Shown in pieces: positions 21,913 to 57,175 of a stretch of 64,000 bases of DNA. The translations under genes and the position numbers were made by a program. This DNA comes from an uncultured virus (IMG/VR IMGVR_UViG_3300024308_000304) (Duplodnaviria; Heunggongvirae; Uroviricota; Caudoviricetes). Under the pieces are notes generated by a model. The model saw only the letters and a list, made by a program, of their open reading frames with translations, searched no databases and was not told the origin of the DNA. The stretch lies in the IMG/VR virus record IMGVR_UViG_3300024308_000304; one strand, written 5' to 3'. Within the stretch, counting starts at the first letter, position 1, and each line of letters opens with the position of its first letter.

Positions 21913-22047
21913 TATAACTCCTTAAATTTTAACGATAAAAATAAACTACCATTAAAAAAGTAAAAGTCAAAAAAAAACTTAGAAATGTTGATTTTACAAG
22001 ATTAGGTGTTACTATTAAAAAACAATAAAAATGGAGATGTATATATT

Positions 22048-22695
22048 ATGAATAAATTAGGTGAATTTAACAGACTACTTTGCCAAGAGGAAATTGATGC
22101 TGAATTATCAAAATTAGGTAAACGTTTAGATGGAAAATTTAGAAAAACGTACATGAAGATGGCTTTAACAGCAAGTGATCTATCTTACTGTGCAAGATTA
22201 AAAGTTGGCTCTTTAATTGTGACTCAATTTAATGAAATGCTTACTGGATATAATGGAACACCATCAGGATTCCCAAACACCTGTGAACTTCCTAATCAAG
22301 ATGTTACAAACCCTATTACACTACATGGTGAGGCAAATGGTATGTCAAAAGCTGAACAAAGTACATTAAGCATCCGAAATGCATCTTTGTTTGTTACTCA
22401 TATACCTTGTATAGAATGTGCAAAAAGAATCATTCAAAGCGGAATGAAAAGAGTTTTCTATATACATGATTACCGATTAACAGATGGATTAGAATTGTTG
22501 ACAGATTTACGGTCAGAAATTCAGGTTATTAAATTAGATGCTGAGACTTTTGATATTGTAAATATACATGGCTATTATAAACCAATATTAACTGTGGAAG
22601 ATGAATTTGTCTATAATACACTTCTTCGTAAAATTGAAACGTTAGAAAATAAAATACAAAGTATGAAATCTTGTAATTGCAAAAATTGTCAATAA
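22048..22695 (+). CDS. dCMP deaminase
   Basis: GYNGTPSG, HGEAN, PCIECAK. Confidence 0.92.
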   Translation: MNKLGEFNRLLCQEEIDAELSKLGKRLDGKFRKTYMKMALTASDLSYCARLKVGSLIVTQFNEMLTGYNGTPSGFPNTCELPNQDVTNPITLHGEANGMSKAEQSTLSIRNASLFVTHIPCIECAKRIIQSGMKRVFYIHDYRLTDGLELLTDLRSEIQVIKLDAETFDIVNIHGYYKPILTVEDEFVYNTLLRKIETLENKIQSMKSCNCKNCQ

Positions 22696-23694: not shown

Positions 23695-26061
23695 TTATAC
23701 TTTAGGTTTATTTTTCTTTGGTAAAACAGATAACTCCTGTACCAATTCTTTATTGTTAACCATAAATTCATCTCTTAAATCAATAATGCTACGCTTCCTT
23801 TGCTCTGATGGCAATACTTTGATGTAATTCAAAAATTCAACTGCTAATTTTTTATCAACATCATTAATTAAGAAGTGATTATTAACTAAATTAACAGTAT
23901 CAAATTTATCACCTTTAAGTTCAGAACGTTCCATCTTCTCAACAAAGCCACGCATAGTTTTCCAGAAGCTGTAATATGGAAGTTTAATCTTAATCATATT
24001 CAATGCATCATCTTCACACACAAAACCTTCAAATTGTCTCTTAGTAGTGAAAGCACTTTCATTAGAAACTGAATTAAAGAATTTTTCAAAATTTTCTGGA
24101 GATTCAAAATGAGCAAATCTTTTTTTCACTTTAAGATCTTTAAATCCTTCTGCAAACTTTGTTAATTCTTCATAATTCAATTGTGAGAACTTGAATTCTC
24201 TCTTAACAATACCAATCAATACCAAGTGTGGTGTATCATATTTCACAATATGAGGATCATTTACTGGATCATTCACTTCAAACAGATAATTAACATTATG
24301 CTTGTTAGCAAAAATCTTCATATGTTCTAATTCAGATTTAGTAAACTGAGCTTTGGCAATATCTTTCAAATAAGTAGAAAATTCTCCACCAATATCTGAT
24401 TTAGAAGCAAAGATGAGGCTATCATTCTTTGAATCATAACCAACAATACCTAAGAAACCATTCTCTTTTTCATAAAGATTGATTTTTCCTTTAAAATTAC
24501 TTTTTACAACTTCCATTTTCGCAGAAGGAATTCCTCGTTCATTAACATTAAAGAACTTTTCAAAACCACGAGCTACAATTTCACCTGACTCAGTATTAAT
24601 AAACAAACCACGAGCATGAATTAAAAGCTCATTTTCAAAACGTTTATCAAAAAAAGCTTCTTTCTTGAAATTGAAAGCTGAAATATGTGGTAAGTCTTCA
24701 AATGTTTTTTCACGAATAAGTTCATTTGCTCTCAAATCTTTAACAATCTCAAGATTTTCTTTACTGTAGTTTACTTTATTTTCTAAAAAATCACTCAAAT
24801 TGTTAACATCTGCTTTTGTTATAAACATATTTTTTTCTTTTTCAATCTTCTCAACAGCAGTTTTATTAAATACTTTATTAGTAATATAAATACCATTAAA
24901 ACCGTTTTTATCCAATCTAAGAATTGGCAAGCTACCACCATATTCAACATCAGCCTCAAGAGCAAAGCTTTTTGGGTGAGTCTCAAAACCATGTTTATAT
25001 TGGTTTCTATGGCCATGAACTTGATACCAGTTATTATCTTGGTTTAGTTCATTAAATGTTTTATCAACATCATAACTGTAAGAACCATAACCTCTCATAT
25101 ATTCAATAGTAGTCAAAAGTCTTGGATGTTTAGGTACATTAGCAAGACCAGCATGAGTTGCCATAATATTTTTATCTCTATAATGAATAAAGCTGTAAAG
25201 ATGAAGCTTATTATAAAGCTCACGCATATCTTCTTTATTAATACCAGCTTTTAACAACTGTGGTAATGTATTATAAGTAAATTCACTTGGTGGAGTCAAA
25301 ATATCATTACTGTAGTTATACAAGTGTAATTCATGGTTCCCAGCTAAAAAAACAAAGTTCTCATAATCAATATATTTCTGAACGAAACGGAAACATTTAT
25401 CATTCTGAATACCACGATCAAGATAGTCGCCAACTAAAATATAGACTTCATCCTTGCTATAAGTGTTTTGTTCAAAGAACTGTTTCAATGGATAGAATGA
25501 ACCTTGAAGATCACCAATCCAGTTAATTTTCTTATAATGACTAAGATCCAAAAGTAAAGATTCTGGAGTTGCTTTTACATAAGCAAGAGCTTGTTCTGGT
25601 GTAATAATTTTAGATGGATCATCAAATTTTGAATTAACAAACAAATCATAGTTACGATCAAGGGCTTCTTTAGGAAGTCTTTTATACGTTTCACGTTGTT
25701 CATTTCTTTTATAATAGAATTCTTTATCCATCAATGGGAAACGAACAATTCTGTAGTCATAATGATATTGTTTCATAATGTCTAAATAAGTATCAATTGA
25801 TTTTTGATCTTGGTTTAAGTTATCAATGAAAATAGCTCCGCCATTACTCAACCTTACTTTAAATGCTTCAATAAATTTAGCAAAAACAAAATCCTCTCTA
25901 TTATTAGAAAGAACAAGATTACCAAACATATCAGTAGCAGCACCAGCGTAGACATGACGAATCGCATCCAAAGACAATGTATGTGGGTCTAATTCGTTCT
26001 CATGAATAAATGTTGATTTACCTGTTCCTGGCATTGCTGAAAGAAAATACACAATTCTCAT
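23695..26061 (-). CDS. Trifunctional RNA repair enzyme: polynucleotide kinase, metallophosphoesterase and Rnl1-like RNA ligase
   Basis: AMPGTGKS; GDLQG, GDYLDRG, GNHE, HGH; EKFFN, KENGFLG (motif I), EGFV, IKIK. Confidence 0.88.
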   Translation of the reverse strand: MRIVYFLSAMPGTGKSTFIHENELDPHTLSLDAIRHVYAGAATDMFGNLVLSNNREDFVFAKFIEAFKVRLSNGGAIFIDNLNQDQKSIDTYLDIMKQYHYDYRIVRFPLMDKEFYYKRNEQRETYKRLPKEALDRNYDLFVNSKFDDPSKIITPEQALAYVKATPESLLLDLSHYKKINWIGDLQGSFYPLKQFFEQNTYSKDEVYILVGDYLDRGIQNDKCFRFVQKYIDYENFVFLAGNHELHLYNYSNDILTPPSEFTYNTLPQLLKAGINKEDMRELYNKLHLYSFIHYRDKNIMATHAGLANVPKHPRLLTTIEYMRGYGSYSYDVDKTFNELNQDNNWYQVHGHRNQYKHGFETHPKSFALEADVEYGGSLPILRLDKNGFNGIYITNKVFNKTAVEKIEKEKNMFITKADVNNLSDFLENKVNYSKENLEIVKDLRANELIREKTFEDLPHISAFNFKKEAFFDKRFENELLIHARGLFINTESGEIVARGFEKFFNVNERGIPSAKMEVVKSNFKGKINLYEKENGFLGIVGYDSKNDSLIFASKSDIGGEFSTYLKDIAKAQFTKSELEHMKIFANKHNVNYLFEVNDPVNDPHIVKYDTPHLVLIGIVKREFKFSQLNYEELTKFAEGFKDLKVKKRFAHFESPENFEKFFNSVSNESAFTTKRQFEGFVCEDDALNMIKIKLPYYSFWKTMRGFVEKMERSELKGDKFDTVNLVNNHFLINDVDKKLAVEFLNYIKVLPSEQRKRSIIDLRDEFMVNNKELVQELSVLPKKNKPKV

Positions 26062-35720: not shown

Positions 35721-35825
35721 ATCTATTTGTCTGCATTTTGGACGGGTAGATGTCCAGATGCAGAGTTGATCGAATTAACTTCATTCTACAACTATCGCGT
35801 CTGGACCCCAAAAGGGTCTTTTTTT
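35721..35825 (+). promoter_or_regulatory. Transcription attenuator (alternative hairpins, antiterminator, terminator)
   Basis: GTCCAGATGC (35752-61) pairs with GCGTCTGGAC (35797-806), which overlaps terminator GGACCC-CAAAA-GGGTCT followed by a T run. Confidence 0.8.
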
Positions 35826-35915: not shown

Positions 35916-35944
35916 TTGACAAAATGTTTTTCACTTGGTAATAT
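35916..35944 (+). promoter_or_regulatory. Strong sigma70 promoter for the tRNA array
   Basis: TTGACA-17-TAATAT with A-tract UP element. Confidence 0.8.
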
Positions 35945-36053: not shown

Positions 36054-36139
36054 GCGGATGTGGCGAAATTTGGTAAACGCGACCGTCTCAAAAACGGTTC
36101 TTTATAAGATTGTGAGTTCGAGTCTCACCATCCGCACCA
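36054..36139 (+). tRNA. tRNA-Leu(CAA)
   Basis: Cloverleaf, loop CT-CAA-AA, long variable arm, ACCA end. Confidence 0.92.
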
Positions 36140-36224
36140 AATAAAAAATGGGTTGCTCTGGTCACTGACTGGAACCTTTAAAACATACTAACTATGAATA
36201 CTAGTATTATTAAAGGCAAACCCC

Positions 36225-36309
36225 TGACAAAAGTGATGAAATGGTAGCCATGACACCGAGCGAAGGTGTGCCCAATAAGGCGTGAGGGTTCAAGTCCCTT
36301 CTTTTGTCA
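36225..36309 (+). ncRNA. tRNA-Leu-like RNA with aberrant anticodon loop (GAGCGAA), 9-bp acceptor helix, no CCA
   Basis: Intact D arm, variable arm and T arm (GGGTTCAAGTCCC); lacks U33. Confidence 0.7.
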
Positions 36310-36320
36310 AGTTTAAGAAT

Positions 36321-36404
36321 GCGTTAGTGGTGGAATGGTATACACGTTGGTCTAAGAAGCCAATGCCGCAAGGATTGAGAGTTCAAGTCTCTCCTAACGC
36401 ACCA
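36321..36404 (+). tRNA. tRNA-Leu(AAG)
   Basis: Loop CT-AAG-AA, long variable arm, ACCA. Confidence 0.92.
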
Positions 36405-36415
36405 AATTAAGATAT

Positions 36416-36500
36416 GCCCTGATGTTGGAATAGGTAGACATAACGGTCTAAGAAGCCGTGGCCGAAAGGCATGCGAGTTCGAGTCTCGCTTAGGGCACCA
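36416..36500 (+). tRNA. tRNA-Leu(AAG)
   Basis: Loop CT-AAG-AA, ACCA. Confidence 0.92.
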
Positions 36501-36509
36501 AATATAAAA

Positions 36510-36594
36510 GCCTCTCTGGCGGAATTGGTAGACGCGGCGGATTCAAAATCCGCTTCCGAAAGGAGTGTGGGTTCGAGTCCCACGGGAGGCACCA
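36510..36594 (+). tRNA. tRNA-Leu(CAA)
   Basis: Loop TT-CAA-AA, ACCA. Confidence 0.93.
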
Positions 36595-36610
36595 AATTGT
36601 TACAAATTAT

Positions 36611-36696
36611 GCCCAAATGGTGAAATTGGTAGTACACAGGAGACTTAAAATCTCCCGGCGAAAGTCGTGTCGGTTCGAGTCCGACTTTGGGCACCA
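36611..36696 (+). tRNA. tRNA-Leu(TAA)
   Basis: Loop CT-TAA-AA, ACCA. Confidence 0.93.
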
Positions 36697-36835
36697 GATT
36701 ATTACAAACAGCCCGTAGTTACTAGGGTGTTGATAGGAGCTAAAGAAATGCTGCTTGATAAGTGTTTAAATGTACACCTCTTGCGGGAGAAAGGTCAAGG
36801 TGCGGGCGTTGATTATCAACTTGTAATAAAAATAT

Positions 36836-36919
36836 GCGGAAGTGACGAAATGGTAGACGTGCTGGTCTTAGAAGCCAGTGTCGAAAGACGTGTGGGTTCG
36901 AGTCCCACCTTCCGCACCA
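36836..36919 (+). tRNA. tRNA-Leu(TAG)
   Basis: Loop CT-TAG-AA, ACCA. Confidence 0.93.
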
Positions 36920-36921
36920 GA

Positions 36922-37073
36922 TTGCTTAAATGATGGAATGGTAGACATAGGGTGATAGCCCTGTCATTTACAGGTTCGAATCCTGTTATTAGCAGAAATG
37001 TTAATATGGCGGAACGGTAGACGCGATGGACATTGAGTCCATGACTTGTAGGTTCGAGTCCTACTTTAAGCAA
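36922..37073 (+). ncRNA. Strand-swapped double tRNA-like RNA
   Basis: Two D/T-arm sets; outer 9-bp helix TTGCTTAAA/TTTAAGCAA; inner 8-bp helix TATTAGCA-GAAA-TGTTAATA. Confidence 0.75.
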
Positions 37074-37081
37074 CATATTAT

Positions 37082-37165
37082 GCGTTAGTGGTGGAATGGT
37101 ATACACGCTGGTCTAAGAAGCCAGTGCCGAAAGGATTGTGAGTTCGACTCTCACCTAACGCACCA
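37082..37165 (+). tRNA. tRNA-Leu(AAG)
   Basis: Loop CT-AAG-AA, ACCA; near-duplicate of 36321..36404. Confidence 0.92.
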
Positions 37166-37186
37166 GATTAAAAAAAATGTGTTTAT

Positions 37187-37271
37187 CCCCGGATGGTGGA
37201 ATTGGTAGACACAGGAGACTTAAAATCTCCCGGCGAAAGCCGTGTCGGTTCGAGTCCGACTCCGGGGACCA
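37187..37271 (+). tRNA. tRNA-Leu(TAA)
   Basis: Loop CT-TAA-AA, ACCA. Confidence 0.93.
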
Positions 37272-37281
37272 GTTTTAAAAA

Positions 37282-37373
37282 TTCAATATCGAAGGTTCGA
37301 ATCCTTCTCTCGTGTAATAACGGGGTGGTGAAGTGGTAGACACGTTTGCTGAAATGCATTCTAAAATATTGGA
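37282..37373 (+). ncRNA. Circularly permuted tRNA-like RNA (T arm, closed acceptor helix, D arm), Y-RNA-like topology
   Basis: GAAGG-TTCGAAT-CCTTC, then TCTCGT/ACGGGG, then GTG-AAGTGGTAGA-CAC, enclosed by TTCAATAT/ATATTGGA. Confidence 0.65.
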
Positions 37374-37385
37374 TTACTTTTTTAA

Positions 37386-37471
37386 GCCCGAGTGGTGAAA
37401 TGGTAGACGCGGGGGACTTAAAATCCCTTTCCTTAATCGGAGTGCCGGTTCGAGTCCGGCTTCGGGCACCA
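37386..37471 (+). tRNA. tRNA-Leu(TAA)
   Basis: Loop CT-TAA-AA, ACCA. Confidence 0.92.
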
Positions 37472-37541
37472 AATGTATACTAAAATTTGTTGACTTATTT
37501 TAATATTTGATTTAAAATATCGGCAAATTGAGGTAAATAAA

Positions 37542-37883
37542 ATGAATAAAAAATCTAAAGGACAAGTAGTTTTTGTCAATCTGTATGATAACCGTTATTG
37601 GAATGTATTTCTTGATGGTGAATTATTTCATGAAATACATAAGGAAGACTTCACAACATATGTCTTCAGAGAATCAAACAGAAAAGCATTGGCTAAAGCA
37701 TCATCACTTGATGAAAAAGATCTTCGTTATTCTTATATAGATCTTGAAAATGGCATTAATGAAGATGAATACAATTCAAATGATTATCAAGAATTTCAAG
37801 TAGTTTTAAGTGCTTGCAATTTCTATAATATTGATTATGTATTTAAAGATGTAAACTACGAATACATTGAAACTAAATACTAA
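37542..37883 (+). CDS. Hypothetical protein inside the tRNA array
   Basis: 113 aa, GAGGT RBS, own TTGACT promoter. Confidence 0.7.
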   Translation: MNKKSKGQVVFVNLYDNRYWNVFLDGELFHEIHKEDFTTYVFRESNRKALAKASSLDEKDLRYSYIDLENGINEDEYNSNDYQEFQVVLSACNFYNIDYVFKDVNYEYIETKY

Positions 37884-37912
37884 TAATTGGTAGAATGTAG
37901 TAATAAATTAAT

Positions 37913-37997
37913 GCGGAAGTGATGGAATGGTAGACATAGCAGTCTCAGAAGCTGCTGCTGTAATGGCGTGAGAGTTCAAGTCTCTTCTTCCGTACCA
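37913..37997 (+). tRNA. tRNA-Leu(CAG)
   Basis: Loop CT-CAG-AA, ACCA. Confidence 0.92.
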
Positions 37998-38008
37998 AAA
38001 AAACAAAG

Positions 38009-38035
38009 ATCCAACGGAAACGTTGGATTTTTTTT
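38009..38035 (+). terminator. Terminator ending the tRNA array
   Basis: ATCCAACG-GAAA-CGTTGGAT followed by T run. Confidence 0.88.
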
Positions 38036-48144: not shown

Positions 48145-50832
48145 TTAAACAACTTTATTTTCAAAATAAAATACATAATTTCTTATAATATCATCAATAT
48201 TAAAATCATAAGGAATATAATTTTGAATATTGCTTACCACAAAATAATCAATATATGTCATTTCAAAAAGATTAACGCTTGGATATTTAAAGCCATTTAA
48301 CATATTAAGCAAAATAGATAAATAGTTATTGTGATTGTTAAACCACTTTTCACTTTCTACCAAATCTTTATTAAAAGATAACACAATATCATTATAGTAA
48401 ACTTTTTTATTTGCTGAAACATTATAGATATGATGGTATTCATTAGAATCAAAAGACACATCAGCAATTATCTTTGCGGCCCAATTTATAGGAGTGAAAT
48501 CAAAAGATAAACCAATGGAATCCGTTGGAAGAGTTGATGATTTCAAAGACTCATCAATGAATTGATATAAAAAGGAATTTTTATCATCTGAACTCAATTG
48601 TTCTGGAAGTAATAATCCTAATCTAAACTGCTGTATATGATTATGTTTATTATAATAACTCATCATATAGTCACTTAACCATTTTGTTTGAGCATATCCA
48701 TTATACAACTCTTCACTATCAATCATCAAAGTATCTTCATCAATAATTGAATTATTAAGATGACTACCAGAGACATGAACAGATAAAGTAGACGAATAAT
48801 AAATTTTTTTAAGTATTCCATCAAAAGAGAATTGAATTATATTTGCTGATGACTTTACATTATCATTAAATAACTGATCAAAAGTTCCTATATTATTAAC
48901 ATTAGCTGCATTATGATAGATATGAGATACATTGTCTTTTATCATCTCATAATCTTTCTTGGAAAGCCCAATAAGATCATCTGAAAGACTTGTTATAGGT
49001 AATATTACTATATTGTCTTGAAGTGTATTTTTTTTCATAAACTTAGAAATAGCATCTTCATAACTAACAGCACGAATTAAACAATATATTGTTTTATAAG
49101 CGTCTTTAATTTGATGTAATATTGCACTACCAAGATGGCCAGTAACACCTGTCATTAAAGCTACATTTGTATCATGAAAATCAAGGTCTTGTGAAATTTT
49201 AATCAGACTCCAATCAATTGAGTTTACCAATTCATATTTAGTAATTGGTTTCACATGAACATAACTTATAATATCTTCAATAGTGTTTTTATCCATTAAA
49301 TAATCAAATGAAATATTCATGCCAATATTTTGAAGTTCTTTTTGTAACAAGATGAACTTCATTGAGTCTGCCCCATTATCTCTAAATGAAATATCTTCTA
49401 CTATCTCATGTCCTAATATAGAAGTAAAAATAGATGAAATTAACTTGAATAAATTATCATTGGTTAAATGTTTACTGTCATTTTTCCCATTAGCTGTTTT
49501 TGGAATGGATGTATGTAGAAAATAATGTGGGATCATATATTGTGGTAACATTTTAGAAATGAAATTTACAATATCTTTTTTATCAACATCACCTTCATAA
49601 TAAGCATGTATTTTATTATCTTTATAAACGACAGAGACATTACTAACGGCTTCAATCGCATTGATAGCTTGTTCTATCTCTTCTAAACATATTAATTGAC
49701 CATTATGTTTTATTTGTCTATCAATACGACCTATAAACTCAATACCCATATCGGTTTTAATAACTTTATCGCCTGTTTTATACCAAACAGAACCATTAAT
49801 TTCAATGAATCGTTCTTGAGTCAATTTAGGATTAGTATAACCACGAGCTAATTGAACTCCAGAAATATAAAGTTCTCCCGCTATATTGCTAACTTCTAAT
49901 TGATTTTCATCTAAAATAATATAGTGAACACCATCTAATGCTTGTCCAATTAATGGCCTTGACCAATTATTGTCACAAATAGAATAGCTTGTGCAAATGG
50001 TAGCCTCTGTTGGCCCATAAACATTAATGACTTTCATACATGCAGAATATTTTCTAACTGTTTCTGGATCTGCAACTTCACCACCAATAACAATTGATTT
50101 TAATGATGGCACATCAATTGGATTAATGAGTTTAATAAATGACGGAGGAATATCCACATAAGTAATTAAATAATCATTAATAAATTCTATAAAAGATGAA
50201 ACTTCATATTTAACACGCTCATCAATAAAAAATGTAGATGCTGATAATAATGAACAGTAAATATCTGAAAGTGAAGCATCAAAATTCATTGAAAGAAACC
50301 AATAAATATTTGAATAGTCCAACTCAAATATTTCAATTTGCTGTGAAATAACATTATCTATACCTTTAAAGTTAACTTCAACACCTTTTGGAACACCTGT
50401 AGTACCAGAAGTATAAATTGTATACATAAGGTTATTGTCATCATAATTAATGATCAAATCATCATTTGATTGAGTTAAGACATGAACGTTCAACGATTCA
50501 ATAACTGCGTTATCTTTAAATCGATTTACTGTTAAAATATCTTTAATACCTGAATCGTTAATTATAAAATTTAGTCTCTCAATTGGTAGTGAAGGATCTA
50601 ATGGAACAAAAGAACAATCTGACAAAGTTAAAGCATAGACAGCCGCCACAAAATCTGCTGATTTATCTATGAAAATACCAATTTTTTTATTTTTAATGTT
50701 TAAAGTTTGAAAACCTTTTGCATAAGATAAAAGATCTTCAAAAGTATAAGATTTTTGATAAAAGAGATCTGTTACAGCTACTGTATTCTTGTTGTTTTCT
50801 GATATAGTTGTTAATTTACTTTTAAAATTCAT
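48145..50832 (-). CDS. Stand-alone NRPS-like enzyme: adenylation, carrier (T) and thioester reductase domains
   Basis: YTSGTTGVPKG, FDAS, YGPTE, GELYISG, YKTGD, NGK; GADS carrier Ser; TGVTGHLG, YAQTK. Confidence 0.92.
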   Translation of the reverse strand: MNFKSKLTTISENNKNTVAVTDLFYQKSYTFEDLLSYAKGFQTLNIKNKKIGIFIDKSADFVAAVYALTLSDCSFVPLDPSLPIERLNFIINDSGIKDILTVNRFKDNAVIESLNVHVLTQSNDDLIINYDDNNLMYTIYTSGTTGVPKGVEVNFKGIDNVISQQIEIFELDYSNIYWFLSMNFDASLSDIYCSLLSASTFFIDERVKYEVSSFIEFINDYLITYVDIPPSFIKLINPIDVPSLKSIVIGGEVADPETVRKYSACMKVINVYGPTEATICTSYSICDNNWSRPLIGQALDGVHYIILDENQLEVSNIAGELYISGVQLARGYTNPKLTQERFIEINGSVWYKTGDKVIKTDMGIEFIGRIDRQIKHNGQLICLEEIEQAINAIEAVSNVSVVYKDNKIHAYYEGDVDKKDIVNFISKMLPQYMIPHYFLHTSIPKTANGKNDSKHLTNDNLFKLISSIFTSILGHEIVEDISFRDNGADSMKFILLQKELQNIGMNISFDYLMDKNTIEDIISYVHVKPITKYELVNSIDWSLIKISQDLDFHDTNVALMTGVTGHLGSAILHQIKDAYKTIYCLIRAVSYEDAISKFMKKNTLQDNIVILPITSLSDDLIGLSKKDYEMIKDNVSHIYHNAANVNNIGTFDQLFNDNVKSSANIIQFSFDGILKKIYYSSTLSVHVSGSHLNNSIIDEDTLMIDSEELYNGYAQTKWLSDYMMSYYNKHNHIQQFRLGLLLPEQLSSDDKNSFLYQFIDESLKSSTLPTDSIGLSFDFTPINWAAKIIADVSFDSNEYHHIYNVSANKKVYYNDIVLSFNKDLVESEKWFNNHNNYLSILLNMLNGFKYPSVNLFEMTYIDYFVVSNIQNYIPYDFNIDDIIRNYVFYFENKVV

Positions 50833-50886
50833 TATTTTTTTCCTAATTATAATCTAAAATATAAAAGCTCCCATAGGAGCATTTAA

Positions 50887-52752
50887 TTAATCATTGTTCC
50901 TTTTACAATAATTTTTATCTAAGTAATAAATACTGAAAATCATCATAATTACTGGGTCAAATGAATTGGCATTAAGTTTACCATTTTTTAATTCAGTAAT
51001 CATATTAAGAATTTTACTTTGGTCAAAGTATTCACTATTAAATATTGTAGAAGAATGAACAATATCCATAAGATGTTCGTAAACATATTTACTGTTTGTC
51101 CAATTGAAAAGTGGTGGAGCAACAAAAGGATGTTTTTGTTTGTTATAGATAGTATCACTAATATAGGGCTTCATAGCTTCTTTTAAAATATGTTTTTCAT
51201 TACCCATATATATTTTTTGTTCAAGTGGAATAGTTCTTACAAAATCAAAAAACTCTCTATCTAAAAATGGCACTCTTCCTTCAATTGTATTTGCCATCTC
51301 TAATTTATCACCCAAAGCATTGAGAATATAATTACTTAAACAAATTTTTGTCCACAAAAATGTAGAATTATTGATTTTAGGAGTCTCTTTGGACATTTCA
51401 TAAAGTCTAATCATATAACTTGCTGGGTCAGAATTGATATAATGATCCAAGAATTCTTTTTTCAATGTATAATTCTTCAATTTATAGCCCATAGAATATT
51501 TAGCTTTCAAAAATGTAGGTACATAACCCAATGTCTTTTCTATTTTTGAAACATCTAACATATCAGTGTCTGGAATTTGCATTCCACTTAAATACTTGTT
51601 TTTCTCAACATGTTTTTCATAGTCAATATCCATTTTCAAATGTGGATAACCAAAGAGTATTTCATCAGAACCTTCACCACTTAATGAAACTTTACAACCA
51701 TCATTGGCCATGTGCTTGAAGAGTAAATATTTAGATGAAACATGCATATTGATAGAAACTTGTTCTGAATGGAATATTGCCTTTTCAAGATTATCAAGAA
51801 GAATCTTTTCATTTACTTCAATAGGGTTAAATTTAGCATTATACATATTAGCCATTTCTTTAGCCGCATTCAATTCATCAAAGTCAGCACCATTTTTAAA
51901 ACTAATAGTATAAGCATTAAGATCTTTTGTAAATTCAGAAGATAATGCCAATACAGAAGCTGAATCTATACCACCACTTAAAGCAATACCTGTTTTTTTT
52001 GTAGTTTTTATTCTGCGAGATACACTTTTTTTCAATTTTTCTAAAAGAATAATTTTGTTCTCTTCTATAGAATTGTAATTCTCTTCAAATGACATTTTAA
52101 AATAGTTTATTTCTGAGAATGTTCTTTTTTTAACATCAATAACTAAAACTGTTCCCGGTTGAATTTGCTTAACTTCATCAAACAAAGTATTGTAGGTGTC
52201 ATGATATTGCATTGTAAATACACTATTTAATGAATTCATATCAAAATTTAAAGAATGCAATGCAAGGTACGCTTTTATTTCTGATGAAACATAAACATTT
52301 TCATTGTTTCTATACATATAGAGAGGTTTTATACCAAAAGAATCTCTACCTAAAAAGACACGACCTTTAATACTGTCATAAAGAAAGAATGCATATTCAC
52401 CATTTAAACGCCCCTTTTCCAAATAATCGAATAACAGACCACGCTCATATAACTGAATAATCATTTCAGAATCGGATTGAGTTTTAAAATCCATATTGAG
52501 TTCTTTTTTAATATCTTCGTAATCATAGAACTCACCATTAACTGCTGCAAAAATAGTGTTTACGGTGTTTGAAACTGGTTGCTTAGTCTTTTCACCAGTA
52601 ATACTTAAAAGATTGTGACCAATAGAAACATTGTTATCCAAGAAATAACCTGTTTCATCTCTACCACGATGACTAATACAATTTAAACCTTTTTTTACAA
52701 AATAATTATTAACTTGACCATCAAAAGAAATTTGTCCTATTATTCCACACAT
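50887..52752 (-). CDS. asnB: Asparagine synthetase (glutamine-hydrolysing) family amidotransferase
   Basis: MCGI N-terminus, RDSFGIKPLY, LSGGIDS, SGEGSDE, RVPFLD. Confidence 0.92.
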   Translation of the reverse strand: MCGIIGQISFDGQVNNYFVKKGLNCISHRGRDETGYFLDNNVSIGHNLLSITGEKTKQPVSNTVNTIFAAVNGEFYDYEDIKKELNMDFKTQSDSEMIIQLYERGLLFDYLEKGRLNGEYAFFLYDSIKGRVFLGRDSFGIKPLYMYRNNENVYVSSEIKAYLALHSLNFDMNSLNSVFTMQYHDTYNTLFDEVKQIQPGTVLVIDVKKRTFSEINYFKMSFEENYNSIEENKIILLEKLKKSVSRRIKTTKKTGIALSGGIDSASVLALSSEFTKDLNAYTISFKNGADFDELNAAKEMANMYNAKFNPIEVNEKILLDNLEKAIFHSEQVSINMHVSSKYLLFKHMANDGCKVSLSGEGSDEILFGYPHLKMDIDYEKHVEKNKYLSGMQIPDTDMLDVSKIEKTLGYVPTFLKAKYSMGYKLKNYTLKKEFLDHYINSDPASYMIRLYEMSKETPKINNSTFLWTKICLSNYILNALGDKLEMANTIEGRVPFLDREFFDFVRTIPLEQKIYMGNEKHILKEAMKPYISDTIYNKQKHPFVAPPLFNWTNSKYVYEHLMDIVHSSTIFNSEYFDQSKILNMITELKNGKLNANSFDPVIMMIFSIYYLDKNYCKRNND

Positions 52753-52764
52753 ATATTGTTATCC

Positions 52765-53625
52765 TTAAAATTTGAAAAATATTTTTTTGTCGCCTGTTTC
52801 ACTTGCTGTAAATGCTTTTTTCCAATCATCAAGTATATAGCTATCACCCAACAAGTGGTTAAAGTCCATATAATGATTTTTAGCATATTCAACAGCAAAA
52901 GCAAAGTCATGATAATATAAAGATTCAATTAAAATTTCTTTTCTGACATAATCATAGAAATTAACAGGAATATGATTTGGAAAACGACTTTTTAAAATTA
53001 ATACACCATTTTTCTTTATAATTTTAGACATAATATCAAAAGTGTGAGTTGTTGCTAACGTCTCAATTACATAATCAAAAGAATTAGGTTCAAGAACAGT
53101 TAAGCTATCAATAAGAACTACATTGTAACCATTTTTTATCATGATTTCATAAGTTAATTTGCCAATCCTATTCTCACCATAAACTGCACCAACCATTTGT
53201 TTATTAATCAATCTGCTTTTTAATGGAGCTAATGATGCTGCTATAGGTTCAATATAAGCTGAAACTCTCATATTATTAAAATTGCCCATAGAGTATACTT
53301 GAGAAGAAGGAATACTTACAAACTCTGCAAAACATCCATGATGCTCAACACCAATCATAGTTAAGTCATCATAAATTGGGTTAACAGTTACAATGTCACC
53401 TTCTTTAAATTTATTACTTTTTGATTGAGCAACATATCCAGAGAACTCATGACCTAAAACAACAGTTTCTGCTGTAATAATTTTGTTCTGAGAAGCGTAG
53501 ATATCTGTACGGCAAATACCTGCCGTATCAACTTTAATTAATACATCATGTTGATGATTTAGACTATAATCAGTAACTTCTGTGGTTTCTATATTTTTTA
53601 ATAATGCTTTCATATTTATATTCAC
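52765..53625 (-). CDS. Zn-dependent MDR alcohol dehydrogenase-like protein, compact (alternative start 53613)
   Basis: GICRTD, GHEFSG, EPIA; lacks structural-Zn loop and canonical GxGxxG. Confidence 0.8.
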   Translation of the reverse strand: MNINMKALLKNIETTEVTDYSLNHQHDVLIKVDTAGICRTDIYASQNKIITAETVVLGHEFSGYVAQSKSNKFKEGDIVTVNPIYDDLTMIGVEHHGCFAEFVSIPSSQVYSMGNFNNMRVSAYIEPIAASLAPLKSRLINKQMVGAVYGENRIGKLTYEIMIKNGYNVVLIDSLTVLEPNSFDYVIETLATTHTFDIMSKIIKKNGVLILKSRFPNHIPVNFYDYVRKEILIESLYYHDFAFAVEYAKNHYMDFNHLLGDSYILDDWKKAFTASETGDKKIFFKF

Positions 53626-53675
53626 TTAATTGATATTTGCTATTATATCATATATAAATAAAATAAGAAAGTGTT

Positions 53676-54281
53676 TTAAATCATCATCATCTCAAATAAT
53701 TCAAATTTTTCTTTATATCCCATATTCTTAACATCAACGCCATTTGCTATAAAATAAGCATTATATTGATTCTCAATGTCATTAAATAAGTCATTAAGCT
53801 TATGATTTTCAAACATTAAAAAATAAGATGAGCTTACATAATTTTTTTTGTCAAAACAAATAGGTGTCGTACTATCATTAAAAACAAAAGTTGTAGTAAT
53901 TAAAGGTTTATTTATTATTAAATGTTTTACAAAACTTATTTCTTTGGAATATTGCTTTGACAAAAAAAAGTAAAAATTATTAATATAAAAAAGAGCTTTT
54001 TCCCCTAAATCATTAAAATTTTTATCATAAAATTTAATACATTTATTATTTTTTTTATCATATTGAATGGAAACACAAACAACAATTTCATTATTAAGCT
54101 GTTTAAGATAGGCATTTGCAATATCGCCACTGCCATTTGTCAAAGAATCATGATAAATACAAAGTCTAACATGATCAAAATATACATCACGTTTAACTTT
54201 ATAACTATCAAATTTTAAATTTAATTCTTTTTCTATCAAGTTAACAAAAAAAGAATCATTCAATTGATTTATGTTAATCAT
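53676..54281 (-). CDS. Hypothetical protein (C-terminal motif family)
   Basis: Ends FELFEMMMI. Confidence 0.65.
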   Translation of the reverse strand: MININQLNDSFFVNLIEKELNLKFDSYKVKRDVYFDHVRLCIYHDSLTNGSGDIANAYLKQLNNEIVVCVSIQYDKKNNKCIKFYDKNFNDLGEKALFYINNFYFFLSKQYSKEISFVKHLIINKPLITTTFVFNDSTTPICFDKKNYVSSSYFLMFENHKLNDLFNDIENQYNAYFIANGVDVKNMGYKEKFELFEMMMI

Positions 54282-55206: not shown

Positions 55207-55264
55207 ATCTGATACCTTTATAAATTTGATAGCAATTATACTAAATTATAGACAAAAAATCAAT

Positions 55265-56167: not shown

Positions 56168-56178
56168 AATCAAACTCC

Positions 56179-57099: not shown

Positions 57100-57175
57100 A
57101 GTTTTCTCCATTAAAATATGCTTAATGGTATCAAAAATTAATTATATAGTCAATAAAAAAAGCTCCGAAGAGCTT

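What the first reader, a model, noticed from the sequence alone, without database searches (positions are those of the whole stretch)
36054..37997. Ten tRNA genes, all Leu, including three with the rare AAG anticodon
Seen: CAA x2, AAG x3, TAA x3, TAG, CAG; no GAG; all with encoded CCA and mostly different bodies. CTT and TTA are abundant in the window's genes. Known: most bacteria use GAG for CUU/CUC and restrict A34/inosine to tRNA-Arg(ACG). Inference: tRNAs are grouped by amino acid, tuned to AT-rich codons and diversified to evade nucleases. A34 is either unmodified or edited by a relaxed or element-encoded TadA.
Basis: partly seen in the sequence, partly recalled or inferred. Interest (0 to 1): 0.75.

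Follow-up and report, generated by a model that had tools for sequence, protein, structure and literature searches.

The report
Ten-gene leucine tRNA operon
A giant AT-rich, phage-like genetic element carries one operon of ten working-looking leucine tRNA genes that read all six leucine codons in proportion to the element's own codon use, and several conserved tRNA look-alike RNAs of unknown function sit among them.

Summary
ARAGORN and Rfam both find ten tRNA-Leu genes at 36054-37997: CAA x2, AAG x3, TAA x3, TAG and CAG. All have A73 and an encoded CCA, and none has a GAG anticodon.

The array is one conserved transcription unit, running from a sigma-70-type promoter to an intrinsic terminator. 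A 181-kb IMG/VR relative carries it gene for gene. Nine further metagenome loci carry Leu-dominated arrays; none of 116 Leu genes in the 11 arrays has GAG.

Covariation shows the genes are under tRNA-type constraint: 98.6% of cells paired, and 20 of 23 pairs compensatory.

Gene copy number tracks the element's codon use: TTA 43%, CTT 22%, TTG 20%. The bodies evolve by duplication and anticodon switching.

No TadA or LeuRS lies in the held sequence; the only deaminase is of the dCMP type. tRNA-Leu(AAG) is already known in Lactobacillales, where ordinary TadA edits it, and I found it in several MAG lineages.

Evasion of nucleases is untested. Whether the replicon is a phage or a cell is not settled.

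The scan found this kind of array before on other DNA (e1-5772520).

Verdict: a real feature, and a new variant of phage-type tRNA arrays.

The parts
35916..35944 (+). sigma-70-type promoter of the array (TTGACA, 17 nt, TAATAT, with TG before the -10)
   Evidence: scan. In alignment A1 both hexamers and their spacing are conserved in G001 while the spacer sequence has diverged. A terminator hairpin at 35803-35819 closes the upstream gene.
36054..36139 (+). tRNA-Leu(CAA), A73, CCA
   Evidence: 61.2 bits. 90% identical ortholog in G001. Its body groups with the CUN-type bodies.
36140..36225 (+). conserved structured spacer RNA directly upstream of the aberrant tRNA-like gene
   Evidence: 75-81% conserved in G001, L062, L046 and L060. 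Multi-stem consensus fold with compensatory pairs (alignment A5). No Rfam match at E<=5.
36226..36309 (+). aberrant type-II tRNA-like gene: 8-bp acceptor stem, 5-bp T stem, no CCA, loop GAGCGAA with A33
   Evidence: ARAGORN calls it 'Arg(gcg)'. It is below the Rfam tRNA threshold; its best Rfam match is tRNA-Sec at 22.3 bits, E 0.24. The body is conserved with compensatory stem changes in 5 relatives, but the anticodon loop differs in every one.
36321..36404 (+). tRNA-Leu(AAG) no. 1
   Evidence: 57.3 bits. 95% ortholog in G001; the acceptor-stem differences are compensatory.
36416..36500 (+). tRNA-Leu(AAG) no. 2, with a divergent body
   Evidence: 44.6 bits. No ortholog in G001 (best 78%). Its ortholog is in L046 (88%).
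36510..36594 (+). tRNA-Leu(CAA)
   Evidence: 56.5 bits. Identical over the 82 compared columns to L046:2933-3017.
36611..36696 (+). tRNA-Leu(TAA)
   Evidence: 56.4 bits. 92% ortholog in G001, at a different place in that array.
36697..36835 (+). conserved structured RNA of unknown kind
   Evidence: 94% conserved in L062, 85% in L058, 73% in L060, absent from G001. Consensus fold has 31 pairs, 10 of them with compensatory changes in 4 sequences. No Rfam match.
36836..36919 (+). tRNA-Leu(TAG)
   Evidence: 60.7 bits. 96% ortholog in G001.
36924..37074 (+). two degenerate tRNA-like units that fold as one composite RNA
   Evidence: Rfam 31.2 and 41.8 bits. No CCA, non-canonical anticodon loops, and mismatched acceptor stems of their own. 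95-97% conserved in G001. In the consensus fold of 3 sequences, the 5' end of the first unit pairs with the 3' end of the second over 9 bp, 2 of them compensatory in L062. The inner ends pair with each other. 8 of 45 pairs are compensatory.
37082..37165 (+). tRNA-Leu(AAG) no. 3
   Evidence: 56.8 bits. 99% ortholog in G001.
37187..37271 (+). tRNA-Leu(TAA)
   Evidence: 55.3 bits. 95% ortholog in G001.
37272..37385 (+). permuted tRNA mimic with the topology of YrlA (bacterial Y RNA): T arm, closed acceptor-like stem-loop and D arm inside a 10-bp outer stem
   Evidence: Folds. 91-96% conserved in G001, L062 and L046. A covariance model also finds a diverged copy in L058 (41.8 bits, E 4e-7). The outer stem and the closed stem show compensatory changes.
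37386..37471 (+). tRNA-Leu(TAA)
   Evidence: 52.5 bits. 91% ortholog in G001.
37542..37883 (+). 113-aa ORF of unknown function embedded in the array, with promoter-like sites at 37490-37518 and 37867-37896
   Evidence: Conserved at 50% amino-acid identity, at the same place, in G001. Only 3 database homologs. No Pfam, PHROG or NCBIfam family. Model pLDDT 73.5; no PDB fold match at E<=0.001.
37913..37997 (+). tRNA-Leu(CAG), the last gene of the unit
   Evidence: 50.1 bits. The gene at the same position in G001 carries TAG instead.
38005..38032 (+). intrinsic-terminator-like hairpin plus T run that ends the unit
   Evidence: 12 pairs, then a T run. G001 has a different hairpin plus T run at the same place.
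23695..26061 (-). context: 788-aa fusion of kinase, metallophosphatase and Rnl1-type RNA ligase (tRNA-repair type)
   Evidence: Pfam AAA_33 + Metallophos + RNA_lig_T4_1. phrog_8238 at 2.7e-145. 55% ortholog in G001.
22006..22695 (+). context: the only CDA-fold deaminase in the window, of dCMP-deaminase/ComEB type, not TadA

Best explanation
The ten genes are functional, bacterial-type class II leucine tRNAs. They form one conserved operon in a giant AT-rich element that is more likely a huge phage than a cell.

A sigma-70-type promoter drives a polycistronic precursor, and an intrinsic terminator ends it. Because CCA is encoded, host RNase P and 3' exonucleases would be enough for maturation (inferred).

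Host LeuRS would charge all ten (inferred). It does not read the anticodon; all ten have A73 and a long variable arm.

Together they give the element its own complete leucine decoding set, with gene dosage matched to its own codon use:
- TAA x3 for UUA
- CAA x2 for UUG
- AAG x3 for the dominant CUU
- TAG for CUA
- CAG for CUG

A34 is the selected state because CUU outnumbers CUC about 7 to 1, and A or I pairs with U better than G does. Whether A34 stays A or becomes inosine depends on the unknown host's TadA; the element has none in the sequence seen.

The array grows and changes by tandem duplication and single-base anticodon switches among leucine anticodons. LeuRS's indifference to the anticodon makes such switches harmless as long as the new anticodon still means Leu.

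Shown: gene identity, structural constraint, conservation, promoter and terminator motifs, codon match, anticodon switching, and absence of TadA and LeuRS in the held DNA. Inferred: expression, charging, modification state, and the benefit to the element.
For: Identity and constraint:
- establish the genes.
- I aligned 77 of the 116 Leu genes from 8 of the 11 arrays. All 77 keep U33, A35, A37, A73 and CCA.
- 98.6% of 1587 cells are paired, and 20 of 23 pairs have changes on both sides. 0 of 500 shuffles reach this; slid controls give 30-47%.

Conservation:
- 8 of the 10 genes have an 86-99% match in G001.
- Proteins of the collinear region are only 24-81% identical; 50 of 72 ORFs have a match.

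Transcription unit:
- Both promoter hexamers are conserved while the spacer has diverged.
- Terminator-like hairpins number 20 against 5.2 +/- 2.4 expected in 28-46 kb, one of them directly after the last tRNA.

Dosage and codon use:
- The three copy-number differences between the window and G001 (AAG 3 vs 2, TAG 1 vs 2, CAA 2 vs 3) all go the same way as the codon shares: CTT 22 vs 18%, CTA 6.5 vs 8.2%, TTG 20 vs 22%.

No GAG:
- 0 of 116 Leu genes in 11 arrays, despite 15 inferred anticodon changes on the body tree (minimum possible 4).

Literature on decoding:
- Unmodified A34 pairs best with U (PMC11066159, abstract start).
- LeuRS does not use the anticodon (PMC11028032, abstract start).

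Phage affinity:
- Full-length PHROG matches to jumbo-phage families and the best tblastn hits lie in jumbo phages.
- The relative is in IMG/VR.
- All 27 tRNA matches of G001 lie in two arrays, and there is no other Rfam family in 147 kb.
- Few ORFs have a family: 22 of 68 in the window and 23 of 110 in G001.
- Huge phages are known to carry up to 67 tRNAs, tRNA synthetases and tRNA ligases (PMC7162821, passage).
Against:
- The host is unknown, so neither codon compensation nor dependence on host TadA or LeuRS could be tested.
- Leu is only the third commonest amino acid here (8.6%, after Lys and Ile). G001 has six Ala tRNA genes for an amino acid that makes up 4.5% of its codons. Dosage alone therefore does not explain which amino acids get arrays.
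- No capsid, terminase or NCLDV capsid family was found in G001 or in three other AAG-bearing IMG/VR records.
- Relatives lie on contigs of up to 866 kb and 1.86 Mb. IMG/VR calls G001 a provirus. The element holds cell-like genes: GAPDH, TrxB, AsnB, and OmpA and LplT-acyltransferase types.
- The set includes tRNA-Leu(CAG) for the element's rarest Leu codon. The operon also carries at least four conserved non-tRNA or aberrant tRNA-like RNAs that a pure supply model does not explain.
Confidence: 0.6

Rival explanations
1. Counter-defence cassette. The array replaces host leucine (class II) tRNAs that a host nuclease destroys during infection, or that the element's own host shut-off destroys. The co-transcribed tRNA mimics act as decoys or sensors. 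The neighbouring RNA-repair enzymes mend what is cut.
For: - The set is complete, including CAG for a codon used at 4.3%. This fits replacement better than supplementation.
- A Pnkp-Rnl1-type fusion lies 10 kb upstream. G001 adds RtcB and a HAD_SAK_2 RNA-repair domain.
- Closed-acceptor tRNA mimics are conserved inside the operon.
- Phage tRNAs are documented to rescue phages from tRNA-cutting defences: PMC10264068, PMC11555353 and PMC12409363 (listing and abstract starts), and PMC13056530 (passages).
- An AT-rich element probably has an AT-rich host whose tRNA pool would already fit its codons (inference).
Against: - The papers I read name no bacterial nuclease specific for tRNA-Leu. PMC13056530 holds 0 occurrences of 'Leu' in its main text.
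- Anticodon loops are the same in all genes of an anticodon for AAG and TAA; the two CAA genes differ only at position 32.
- Host tRNAs are unknown, so the escape mutations expected under this model cannot be scored.
- Copy number follows codon use, which replacement alone does not predict.
- No defence or anti-defence gene was identified next to the array.
Confidence: 0.2
2. The window is part of the chromosome of an uncultured AT-rich bacterium with many orphan genes, not of a virus or mobile element. The array is then that organism's own main leucine tRNA locus, a chromosomal tRNA array unit.
For: - Relatives sit on contigs of 342 kb to 1.86 Mb, and the array occurs only once on the 1.86-Mb contig.
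- IMG/VR cut G001 out as a 'provirus'.
- Housekeeping-type genes are present.
- Bacterial promoter and terminator signals are present.
- No virion genes were found.
- tRNA array units exist in bacterial chromosomes (PMC5966550, abstract start).
Against: - A scan of 185,579 species genomes for the AAG tRNA found 8 loci. None carries a Leu array of this kind, and 6 are single chromosomal genes.
- Only 22 of 68 window ORFs and 23 of 110 G001 ORFs match any Pfam family.
- Several of the best matches are jumbo-phage-specific families, such as phrog_27142 at 3.4e-107 against 55 bits for bacterial RlmN.
- No dispersed tRNA or other Rfam RNA occurs in 147 kb.
- Ten or more Leu tRNA genes would be extreme for a genome of about 2 Mb.
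Confidence: 0.2
3. Self-regulated operon. A leucine-rich leader peptide with an attenuator in front of the array raises tRNA-Leu synthesis when Leu codons are read slowly. An earlier agent of this scan gave this reading for a related array (e1-5772520).
For: A short stretch just after the -10 is conserved (AACATGAAGAGT), so the leader is under some constraint.
Against: - In this window the only ORF in the 109-nt leader is ATG AAG AGT TAA. In G001 it reads M-K-S-E-E-T-N-K-H-S. Neither has a Leu codon, and their lengths differ.
- No terminator-like hairpin lies between the promoter and the first tRNA.
Confidence: 0.04
4. Eukaryote-style decoding set of a giant virus of protists. The set AAG, CAG, TAG, CAA, TAA without GAG is the eukaryotic pattern, which relies on host ADAT.
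For: - The anticodon set matches the eukaryotic one.
- The genome is AT-rich with frequent strand switches.
- It holds MutM, Ogt, AsnB and UvdE; G001 adds a protein kinase, a NIF phosphatase and several aaRS.
Against: - The bodies are bacterial-type, with encoded CCA.
- A sigma-70 promoter is conserved, and intrinsic terminators are enriched four-fold.
- The mimivirus early motif is not enriched: 25 against 24.1 expected (the motif is recalled).
- No NCLDV capsid was found in G001, though that search's control rang nowhere.
- G001's Ala tRNAs are TGC and GGC, not AGC.
- The best protein matches are to phages.
Confidence: 0.03

Closest known systems
tRNA gene clusters of large phages (T4 and T5 type; huge phages with up to 67 tRNAs, Al-Shayeb et al. 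2020, PMC7162821)
   Same: Dense, co-oriented tRNA genes on a large AT-rich phage-like genome that also carries tRNA synthetases (IleRS and two class II enzymes in G001) and RNA ligases. They are thought to free the phage from the host tRNA pool. T4's cluster also holds two stable RNAs of unknown function (recalled, not checked here).
   Different: Known arrays mix many amino acids, usually with one gene per anticodon. Here one operon holds ten genes for a single amino acid and covers all six of its codons with 2-3 diverged copies of the major readers. Other amino acids sit in separate arrays. My three array or phage-tRNA literature searches turned up no description of single-amino-acid arrays.
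tRNA-Leu(AAG), edited to IAG, of Lactobacillales (Streptococcus, Lactobacillaceae, Oenococcus; PMC13249217, PMC11472039)
   Same: A34 leucine tRNA with no GAG gene beside it, in AT-rich genomes with raised CUU use. The anticodon loop CUAAGAA fits the S. pyogenes TadA consensus YUAMGRA.
   Different: Here it is a multi-copy accessory gene on a giant element, not a single chromosomal gene. Position 37 is A, whereas the streptococcal tRNA differs from tRNA-Arg at position 37 as well (passage). Neither a TadA gene nor inosine itself has been seen.
tRNA array units of Firmicutes and Mycobacterium chromosomes, plasmids and phages (PMC5966550)
   Same: [quoted passage not shown]
   Different: Those units carry broad sets of amino acids. 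I read only the abstract start, so I did not compare them in detail.
YrlA-type bacterial Y RNAs (tRNA mimics bound by Ro60/Rsr; Chen et al. 2014, PMC4201824)
   Same: For the element at 37272-37385: the order is T arm, closed 'acceptor' stem-loop, D arm, with the RNA ends paired in a long stem. AUCGAAG sits where YrlA has GNCGAAN0-1G. Such RNAs are known from phages too.
   Different: No Ro60/TROVE gene lies in the window's scanned ORFs or in the 181-kb relative. There is no Rfam match. The Ro-binding helix was not examined.
Bacterial tRNA-Sec and other tRNAs with 8-bp acceptor stems
   Same: For the gene at 36226-36309: 8-bp acceptor plus 5-bp T stem, a long variable arm, and a weak Rfam tRNA-Sec match (22.3 bits).
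   Different: The score is far below the threshold of 47 bits. There is no UCA anticodon. The loop differs in every relative, with an 8-nt loop in three of five. There is no CCA, and the discriminator is A.

Membership tests
Bacterial class II tRNA-Leu | Cloverleaf with a long variable arm, supported by covariation | tested here: met
   98.6% of cells paired and 20 of 23 pairs compensatory, on 77 of the 116 genes.
Bacterial class II tRNA-Leu | Leucine anticodon in a 7-nt loop with U33 and a purine at 37 | tested here: met
   Position 37 is A in 77 of 77. For CUN readers this differs from the G37 I recall as usual in bacteria.
Bacterial class II tRNA-Leu | Discriminator A73 (LeuRS identity element) | tested here: met
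   10 of 10 in the window and 77 of 77 in A2.
Bacterial class II tRNA-Leu | Expressed, processed and charged with leucine | not testable with these tools
No LeuRS lies in the window or in G001, whose one tRNA-synt_1 match is IleRS.
tRNA-Leu(IAG) decoding system (Lactobacillales type) | A34 Leu gene present and G34 (GAG) gene absent | tested here: met
   Window. 0 GAG among 116 Leu genes of 11 arrays. The rest of the genome and the host are unseen.
tRNA-Leu(IAG) decoding system (Lactobacillales type) | Anticodon loop within the relaxed TadA consensus YUAMGRA | tested here: met
   CUAAGAA in all three genes. The consensus is from a PMC11472039 passage.
tRNA-Leu(IAG) decoding system (Lactobacillales type) | A TadA able to edit tRNA-Leu(AAG) | tested here: not met
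   None in the window or G001. Each has one CDA motif, of dCMP-deaminase type. The host enzyme is unknown. E. coli TadA does not edit the streptococcal tRNA.
tRNA-Leu(IAG) decoding system (Lactobacillales type) | Inosine at position 34 in the RNA | not testable with these tools
   No reads are available.
Phage tRNA array | Carried on a phage genome (virion and packaging genes) | tested here: inconclusive
   Phage-type PHROG matches, and the relative is in IMG/VR. But no capsid or terminase was found, and relatives sit on contigs of up to 1.86 Mb.
Phage tRNA array | Many tRNA genes in tight tandem on one strand | tested here: met
   10 tRNAs plus 3 tRNA-like genes in 1.94 kb.
Anti-defence phage tRNAs (T5 type) | Anticodon-loop or stem differences from the host tRNA that block a host nuclease | not testable with these tools
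   The host and its tRNAs are unknown.
YrlA Y RNA (for 37272-37385) | T arm, closed acceptor-like stem-loop, D arm, with the ends paired | tested here: met
   Covariation in the outer and closed stems across 5 sequences.
YrlA Y RNA (for 37272-37385) | GNCGAAN0-1G motif | tested here: inconclusive
   AUCGAAG at the start of the T stem, with A in place of the first G.
YrlA Y RNA (for 37272-37385) | Encoded next to a Ro60/Rsr (TROVE) gene | tested here: not met
   No TROVE match in G001 or in the window ORFs scanned.
Leader-peptide attenuator in front of the array | Leu-rich leader ORF coupled to a terminator | tested here: not met
   Leader ORFs MKS* and MKSEETNKHS* hold no Leu codon, and there is no hairpin before the first tRNA.

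The most novel reading that the evidence does not exclude
The locus is not just a tRNA supply depot. It is a dedicated 'leucine translation take-over and tRNA-mimic' operon of a clade of giant elements. Real tRNAs replace the host's class II Leu tRNAs. The co-transcribed mimics are a YrlA-like permuted tRNA, a swapped-end double tRNA-like RNA, and an 8/5 tRNA-like RNA whose anticodon loop is rewritten in every relative, often to 8 nt. These mimics would act as decoys for, sensors of, or quadruplet or stop-codon readers against a host system that targets tRNA. Relatives that carry Leu-bodied genes with TTA (stop) and AAA anticodons would then be natural recoding experiments, which LeuRS's blindness to the anticodon makes possible.
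Probability: 0.12. Interest if true: 0.85.

Novelty: new variant of a known kind. Interest (0 to 1): 0.55.

Why it matters
Why phages carry tRNAs is still debated between two ideas: codon supply and escape from tRNA-cutting immunity.

This clade offers an extreme, clean case. It has one promoter and one amino acid. All six codons are covered, copy number follows codon use, and anticodons visibly switch on conserved bodies.

It also shows that A34 leucine tRNAs, recently shown to reshape codon use in streptococci, circulate on giant mobile elements across many environments. The same 26-base AAG stretch (one degenerate position) occurs in 27 metagenome loci and 4 IMG/VR contigs.

If the A34 genes are edited, host TadA specificity becomes a host-range factor. 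If they are not, this is a natural system for unmodified A34 decoding.

The conserved tRNA mimics inside the operon are candidate new non-coding RNAs linked to tRNA biology.

Tried and rejected
- **Own genome:** not held, so tadA and leuS could be sought only in the window and in the 181-kb relative.
- **Genetic code 4:** the ORFs do not need it.
- **Giant virus of eukaryotes:** rejected, as set out under the rival explanations.
- **Concatemer artefact as the cause of the 1.86-Mb contig:** rejected, because the pattern occurs at one place only on it.
- **Metagenome records:** The genome search cannot search them.
- **Virion genes:**
  - Terminase_6N was not found in G001 or in three other AAG-bearing IMG/VR records.
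  - PHROGs matched 4 of 72 G001 orphan ORFs, none structural.
  - These negatives are uninformative, because the records are 14-78% complete.
- **TROVE/Rsr:** none in G001.
- **The 410-aa upstream ORF:**
  - No relative in IMG/VR.
  - The protein atlas gave no usable lead: best score 0.75, TM 0.31.
- **The 113-aa ORF in the array:**
  - 3 homologs only.
  - Model pLDDT 73.5; best Foldseek E-value 0.23.
  - No function assigned.
- **Leader-peptide attenuator of the earlier scan note:** not present here.
- **Weak covariance-model hits of the YrlA-like model (below 27 bits):** these are junctions between neighbouring tRNAs, not further copies.
- **Special avoidance of CTC:** none. CTT/CTC is 6.7, within the 2.6-9.9 range of the 16 NNT/NNC pairs.
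- **GenBank phages:** no close relative. The array region matches only single tRNA-Leu genes, covering at most 18% of the query.

Full report
**1. What is there**

ARAGORN finds 12 tRNA-type genes in the whole 64-kb window, all on the + strand between 36054 and 37997. Ten are tRNA-Leu:
- CAA at 36054 and 36510
- AAG at 36321, 36416 and 37082
- TAA at 36611, 37187 and 37386
- TAG at 36836
- CAG at 37913

Rfam's tRNA model scores all ten at 44.6-61.2 bits, against a gathering score of 29. It finds no other RNA family in the window.

The sequences show that each has:
- a 7-bp acceptor stem
- a long variable arm
- a 7-nt anticodon loop with U33 and A37
- discriminator A73 and an encoded CCA

Pairwise identity among the ten is 59-92%. 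The array is the only GC-rich bin of the window: 40.6% against 25-34% elsewhere.

**2.

ARAGORN's other two calls are an 84-nt 'Arg(gcg)' at 36226-36309 and a 'Gln(ttg)' at 36999-37074. Rfam adds a weak tRNA match at 36924-36994 (31.2 bits). None of the three has CCA, and all have non-canonical anticodon loops: A33 in the two ARAGORN calls, a 6-nt loop in the third. The latter two also have mismatched acceptor stems.

Three spacers are also conserved and structured: 36140-36225, 36697-36835 and 37272-37385 (section 7).

**3. Surroundings and relatives**

*Gene content.* The window uses code 11. Only 22 of 68 ORFs scanned match a Pfam family. 13 of 52 match a PHROG.

Some PHROG matches are full-length hits to small jumbo-phage families:
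- ClpA-like, phrog_4871, 6.9e-236
- a kinase-phosphatase-Rnl1 RNA ligase fusion, phrog_8238, 2.7e-145
- an RlmN/Cfr-like radical-SAM protein, phrog_27142, 3.4e-107; it scores only 55 bits on bacterial RlmN

Cell-like genes are present too: GAPDH, TrxB, AsnB, MutM, Ogt, MsrA and a CoaD/CoaE fusion.

*GenBank phages.* None is close. Protein identities are at most 54%. The array region matches only single tRNA-Leu genes.

*The closest relative.* IMG/VR holds one relative, here called G001. It is 181 kb, classed as 'provirus', with a CheckV completeness of 58%. 50 of 72 window ORFs match it collinearly at 24-81% identity.

G001 carries:
- the same Leu array, with 11 Leu genes plus the same odd members
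- a second array: Ala-TGC x5, Ala-GGC, Arg-TCT x2, Arg-CCT, Met x2
- IleRS
- two class II aaRS, RtcB, a HAD_SAK_2 domain, a protein kinase, Sir2, UvdE and OmpA-family proteins

All 27 of its tRNA matches lie in the two arrays. 147 kb outside them holds no Rfam family.

*Other carriers of the AAG tRNA.* A 26-base pattern from the AAG tRNA occurs in three further IMG/VR contigs, inside mixed tRNA arrays. It also occurs in 27 metagenome loci.

Nine of those metagenome loci carry Leu-dominated arrays of 8-14 Leu genes. Others show alternating Leu/Gln pairs, or Pro(AGG)/Pro(TGG) groups.

The contigs range from 1 kb to 866 kb and 1.86 Mb. The pattern occurs at one place only on the 1.86-Mb contig, so that contig is not a concatemer.

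*Phage or cell.* I could not settle this.
- No terminase or capsid family was found.
- The signals are bacterial. Terminator-like hairpins number 20 against 5.2 +/- 2.4 expected.
- The mimivirus promoter motif is not enriched: 25 against 24.1 expected.

I put the odds at about 2 to 1 for a huge phage or phage-derived element over a cellular chromosome.

**4. Are the genes functional?**

I aligned 77 of the 116 Leu genes of the 11 arrays. Left out were three arrays that are near copies of others (L040, L041, L044) and six genes of 77 or 95 nt.

- U33, A35, A37, A73 and CCA are invariant.
- On the cloverleaf, 98.6% of 1587 cells form standard pairs.
- 20 of 23 pairs have changes on both sides.
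- 0 of 500 shuffles reach this, and partners slid by 1-3 columns give 30-47%.
- 8 of the 10 window genes have a match of 86-99% in G001, although the proteins have diverged to 24-81%.

These are tRNAs under purifying selection, not debris.

**5. Transcription unit**

- A terminator hairpin at 35803-35819 closes the upstream gene.
- A TTGACA-17-TAATAT promoter with a TG extension lies at 35916-35944.
- In the alignment with G001 both hexamers and their spacing are conserved, while the spacer between them has diverged.
- After the ninth tRNA comes a conserved 113-aa ORF with promoter-like sites of its own, then the last tRNA.
- A 12-bp hairpin plus T run follows at 38005-38032. G001 has another hairpin plus T run at that place.

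The earlier scan note on a related array (e1-5772520) proposed a leucine-rich leader peptide with an attenuator. In this window the leader's only ORF is MKS-stop, in G001 it is MKSEETNKHS-stop, and there is no hairpin before the first tRNA. That reading is not met here.

**6. Why these anticodons?**

*Codon use in the window.* In 62 ORFs (17,498 codons), Leu makes up 8.6% of codons.

| Codon | Share of Leu codons |
|---|---|
| TTA | 43.2% |
| CTT | 22.3% |
| TTG | 20.3% |
| CTA | 6.5% |
| CTG | 4.3% |
| CTC | 3.4% |

Gene copies TAA 3, AAG 3, CAA 2, TAG 1 and CAG 1 follow this order.

*Codon use in G001.* The shares are TTA 40, TTG 22, CTT 18, CTA 8, CTC 6 and CTG 5%, with copies TAA 3, CAA 3, AAG 2, TAG 2 and CAG 1. 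The three copy-number differences between the two genomes all go with the codon differences.

*CTT against CTC.* CTT/CTC is 6.7, inside the 2.6-9.9 range of the other NNT/NNC pairs. CTC is therefore rare only because of AT bias. It can be read by inosine, by the TAG tRNA or by a host tRNA.

*How the bodies evolve.* A tree of the bodies, with the anticodon columns removed, has two supported clades:
- a UUR type: TAA 25, CAA 10, TAG 2
- a CUN type: AAG 18, TAG 10, CAG 7, CAA 5

It needs 15 anticodon changes, where 4 is the minimum possible. Clear cases:
- A CAA gene in G001 is 95% identical to its neighbouring TAA gene.
- AAG-type bodies carry CAG in L049 and L060, and TAA-type bodies carry TAG in L058 and L045.
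- The gene at the window's CAG position is TAG in G001.

Despite this traffic, GAG appears in 0 of 116 genes. The arrays were found through the AAG gene, so the presence of AAG is by selection of the sample. The absence of GAG is not.

*What the literature adds.*
- LeuRS does not read the anticodon (PMC11028032, abstract start), so switches among Leu anticodons are harmless.
- tRNA-Leu(GAG) reads CUC about ten-fold faster than CUU, while IAG shows no preference (PMC13249217, passage).
- Unmodified A34 pairs best with U (PMC11066159, abstract start).

A34 thus fits a genome in which CUU dominates.

**7. Inosine or not?**

- In Streptococcus it is fully edited to IAG by the ordinary TadA.
- No family in the Lactobacillales comparison has both AAG and GAG.
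- In GtRNAdb almost all bacterial cases are in Bacilli (PMC13249217, passages).
- S. pyogenes TadA edits it but E. coli TadA does not. The streptococcal editing consensus is YUAMGRA, against YUACGAA in E. coli (PMC11472039, passages).

The three window genes have the loop CUAAGAA. This fits YUAMGRA and differs from the tRNA-Arg loop only at position 35.

My scan of one genome per species found the same anticodon arm in single chromosomal genes of four Bdellovibrionota MAGs and of two very AT-rich small genomes. It also found it in two phage-like arrays binned into MAGs.

The element brings no TadA in the DNA I could see. Six-frame scans give one CDA-type zinc motif in the window and one in G001. 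Both lie in a ComEB/dCMP-deaminase-type protein.

Editing by a host TadA and an unmodified A34 remain about equally likely. An element-encoded enzyme elsewhere in the genome is possible but unsupported.

**8. Nuclease evasion**

Nothing I could test supports diversification for escape.
- Genes with the same anticodon keep the same loop; the two CAA genes differ at position 32. They differ by compensatory changes in the stems.
- The host tRNAs needed for a comparison are unknown.

The idea is not dead, however.
- The set is complete, including CAG for the rarest codon.
- A Pnkp-Rnl1-type fusion lies 10 kb upstream. G001 adds RtcB and HAD_SAK_2.
- Phage tRNAs are documented counter-measures to tRNA-cutting immunity: PMC10264068, PMC11555353 and PMC12409363 (listing and abstract starts), and PMC13056530 (passages).

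None of what I read names a nuclease specific for tRNA-Leu.

**9. The other RNAs of the operon**

(a) **37272-37385.** This folds as a T arm, a closed acceptor-like stem-loop and a D arm, inside a 10-bp outer stem.
- It is 91-96% conserved in three relatives.
- A covariance model finds a diverged copy in L058 (41.8 bits). Both its outer stem and its closed stem are kept through compensatory changes.
- No Ro60/TROVE gene was found.

(b) **36924-37074.** The two degenerate tRNA-like units fold as one RNA. The 5' end of the first pairs with the 3' end of the second over 9 bp, 2 of them compensatory in L062. The inner ends pair with each other.

(c) **36140-36309.** A structured 86-nt RNA sits directly in front of a tRNA-like gene with an 8-bp acceptor and a 5-bp T stem.
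- The stems co-vary: 23 of 51 pairs are compensatory across 5 sequences.
- The anticodon loop is different in each of the five relatives compared, and is 8 nt long in three.

(d) **36697-36835.** A conserved fold in which 10 of 31 pairs are compensatory.

None of these four has an Rfam match at E<=5, apart from a 22-bit tRNA-Sec score for the tRNA-like gene in (c). Their functions are unknown.

**10. Verdict**

The finding is real. It marks a conserved, single-amino-acid tRNA operon of a widespread clade of giant AT-rich, phage-like elements.

The best-supported working model is an autonomous leucine decoding set matched to the element's codon use. It evolves by duplication and anticodon switching. 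A34 is favoured by the dominance of CUU.

The A34 anticodon itself is a known bacterial variant. The single-amino-acid organisation and the embedded tRNA mimics are the new parts.

The scan has seen a sister array before (e1-5772520). My array and phage-tRNA literature searches found no published description.

Noticed in passing
window 37272-37385: Conserved 114-nt RNA with the arms of a tRNA in permuted order: T arm, closed acceptor-like hairpin and D arm, inside a 10-bp stem. This resembles YrlA-type bacterial Y RNAs, but no Ro60/Rsr gene is in sight.
   Followed up: yes
window 36924-37074: Two degenerate tRNA-like units whose outer ends pair with each other and whose inner ends pair with each other, giving one 150-nt double tRNA-like RNA. 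95-97% conserved in G001.
   Followed up: partly
window 36140-36309; L022 9233-9416; L062 4623-4800; L046 3210-3390; L060 4864-5042: A structured 86-nt RNA followed at once by a CCA-less tRNA-like gene with an 8-bp acceptor stem. Its anticodon loop differs in every relative (GAGCGAA, TTCGCTTA, TTCACATA, TTAACGAA, or a 3-nt loop), while its stems co-vary.
   Followed up: partly
window 36697-36835: A 139-nt conserved structured spacer (94% in L062, 85% in L058, 73% in L060) with invariant stretches and compensatory pairs. No Rfam family.
   Followed up: partly
L060 4771-4856; L049 4490-4583; L045 4869-4962; L040 4349-4442; L041 1947-2040; L044 441-534: Relatives' Leu arrays contain class II, Leu-like genes with non-Leu anticodons. 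One has TTA, which would read the UAA stop codon, and has A73 and CCA. A family of 94-nt genes has AAA, an 8-bp acceptor stem and no CCA. If LeuRS charges them, they would recode.
   Followed up: no
L056 3959-5343; L048 3687-4043: Other AAG-bearing giant contigs group their tRNAs differently. One has five alternating Leu/Gln pairs. Another has Pro(AGG), a second A34 tRNA, next to Pro(TGG) x2 and Leu(AAG).
   Followed up: no
alignment A2 (77 Leu tRNAs of 8 arrays): Position 37 is A in all 77, including the CUN readers (AAG, TAG, CAG). As I recall, bacterial tRNAs of that kind usually have G37 (m1G37 made by TrmD). I did not check this against a tRNA database.
   Followed up: no
window 23695-26061 (-): 788-aa fusion of polynucleotide kinase, metallophosphatase and Rnl1-type RNA ligase. 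It is the phrog_8238 type, also seen in SPbeta-like and Staphylococcus phages at about 30% identity. It looks like a one-protein tRNA repair kit.
   Followed up: partly
window 4441-5325 (+): RlmN/Cfr-like radical-SAM protein of a family otherwise found in phiKZ-like and Caulobacter jumbo phages (45-50% identity). Its target may be rRNA A2503 or tRNA A37.
   Followed up: no
window 48145-58186 (-): Run of metabolic genes: a carboxylic-acid-reductase-like AMP-binding/PP-binding/NAD_binding_4 protein (895 aa), asparagine synthase, an ADH_N protein and GAPDH. It also holds three tandem paralogous ORFs of about 310 aa (54274-57111) with no family.
   Followed up: no
metagenome loci L057, L040, L060, L042, L056: Relatives of the array lie on contigs of 1.86 Mb, 866 kb, 604 kb, 584 kb and 581 kb. 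These are at or beyond the largest phage genomes reported (735 kb in PMC7162821). What these replicons are is open.
   Followed up: partly
L033 and L035 (genomes G002 and G003): Two very AT-rich (23-26% GC in the flanks), small (0.7-0.9 Mb) bacterial MAGs carry a single chromosomal tRNA-Leu(AAG) next to an ABC-F gene. Its 17-nt anticodon arm is the same as that of the window's gene at 37082. They may be candidates for the host lineage.
   Followed up: no
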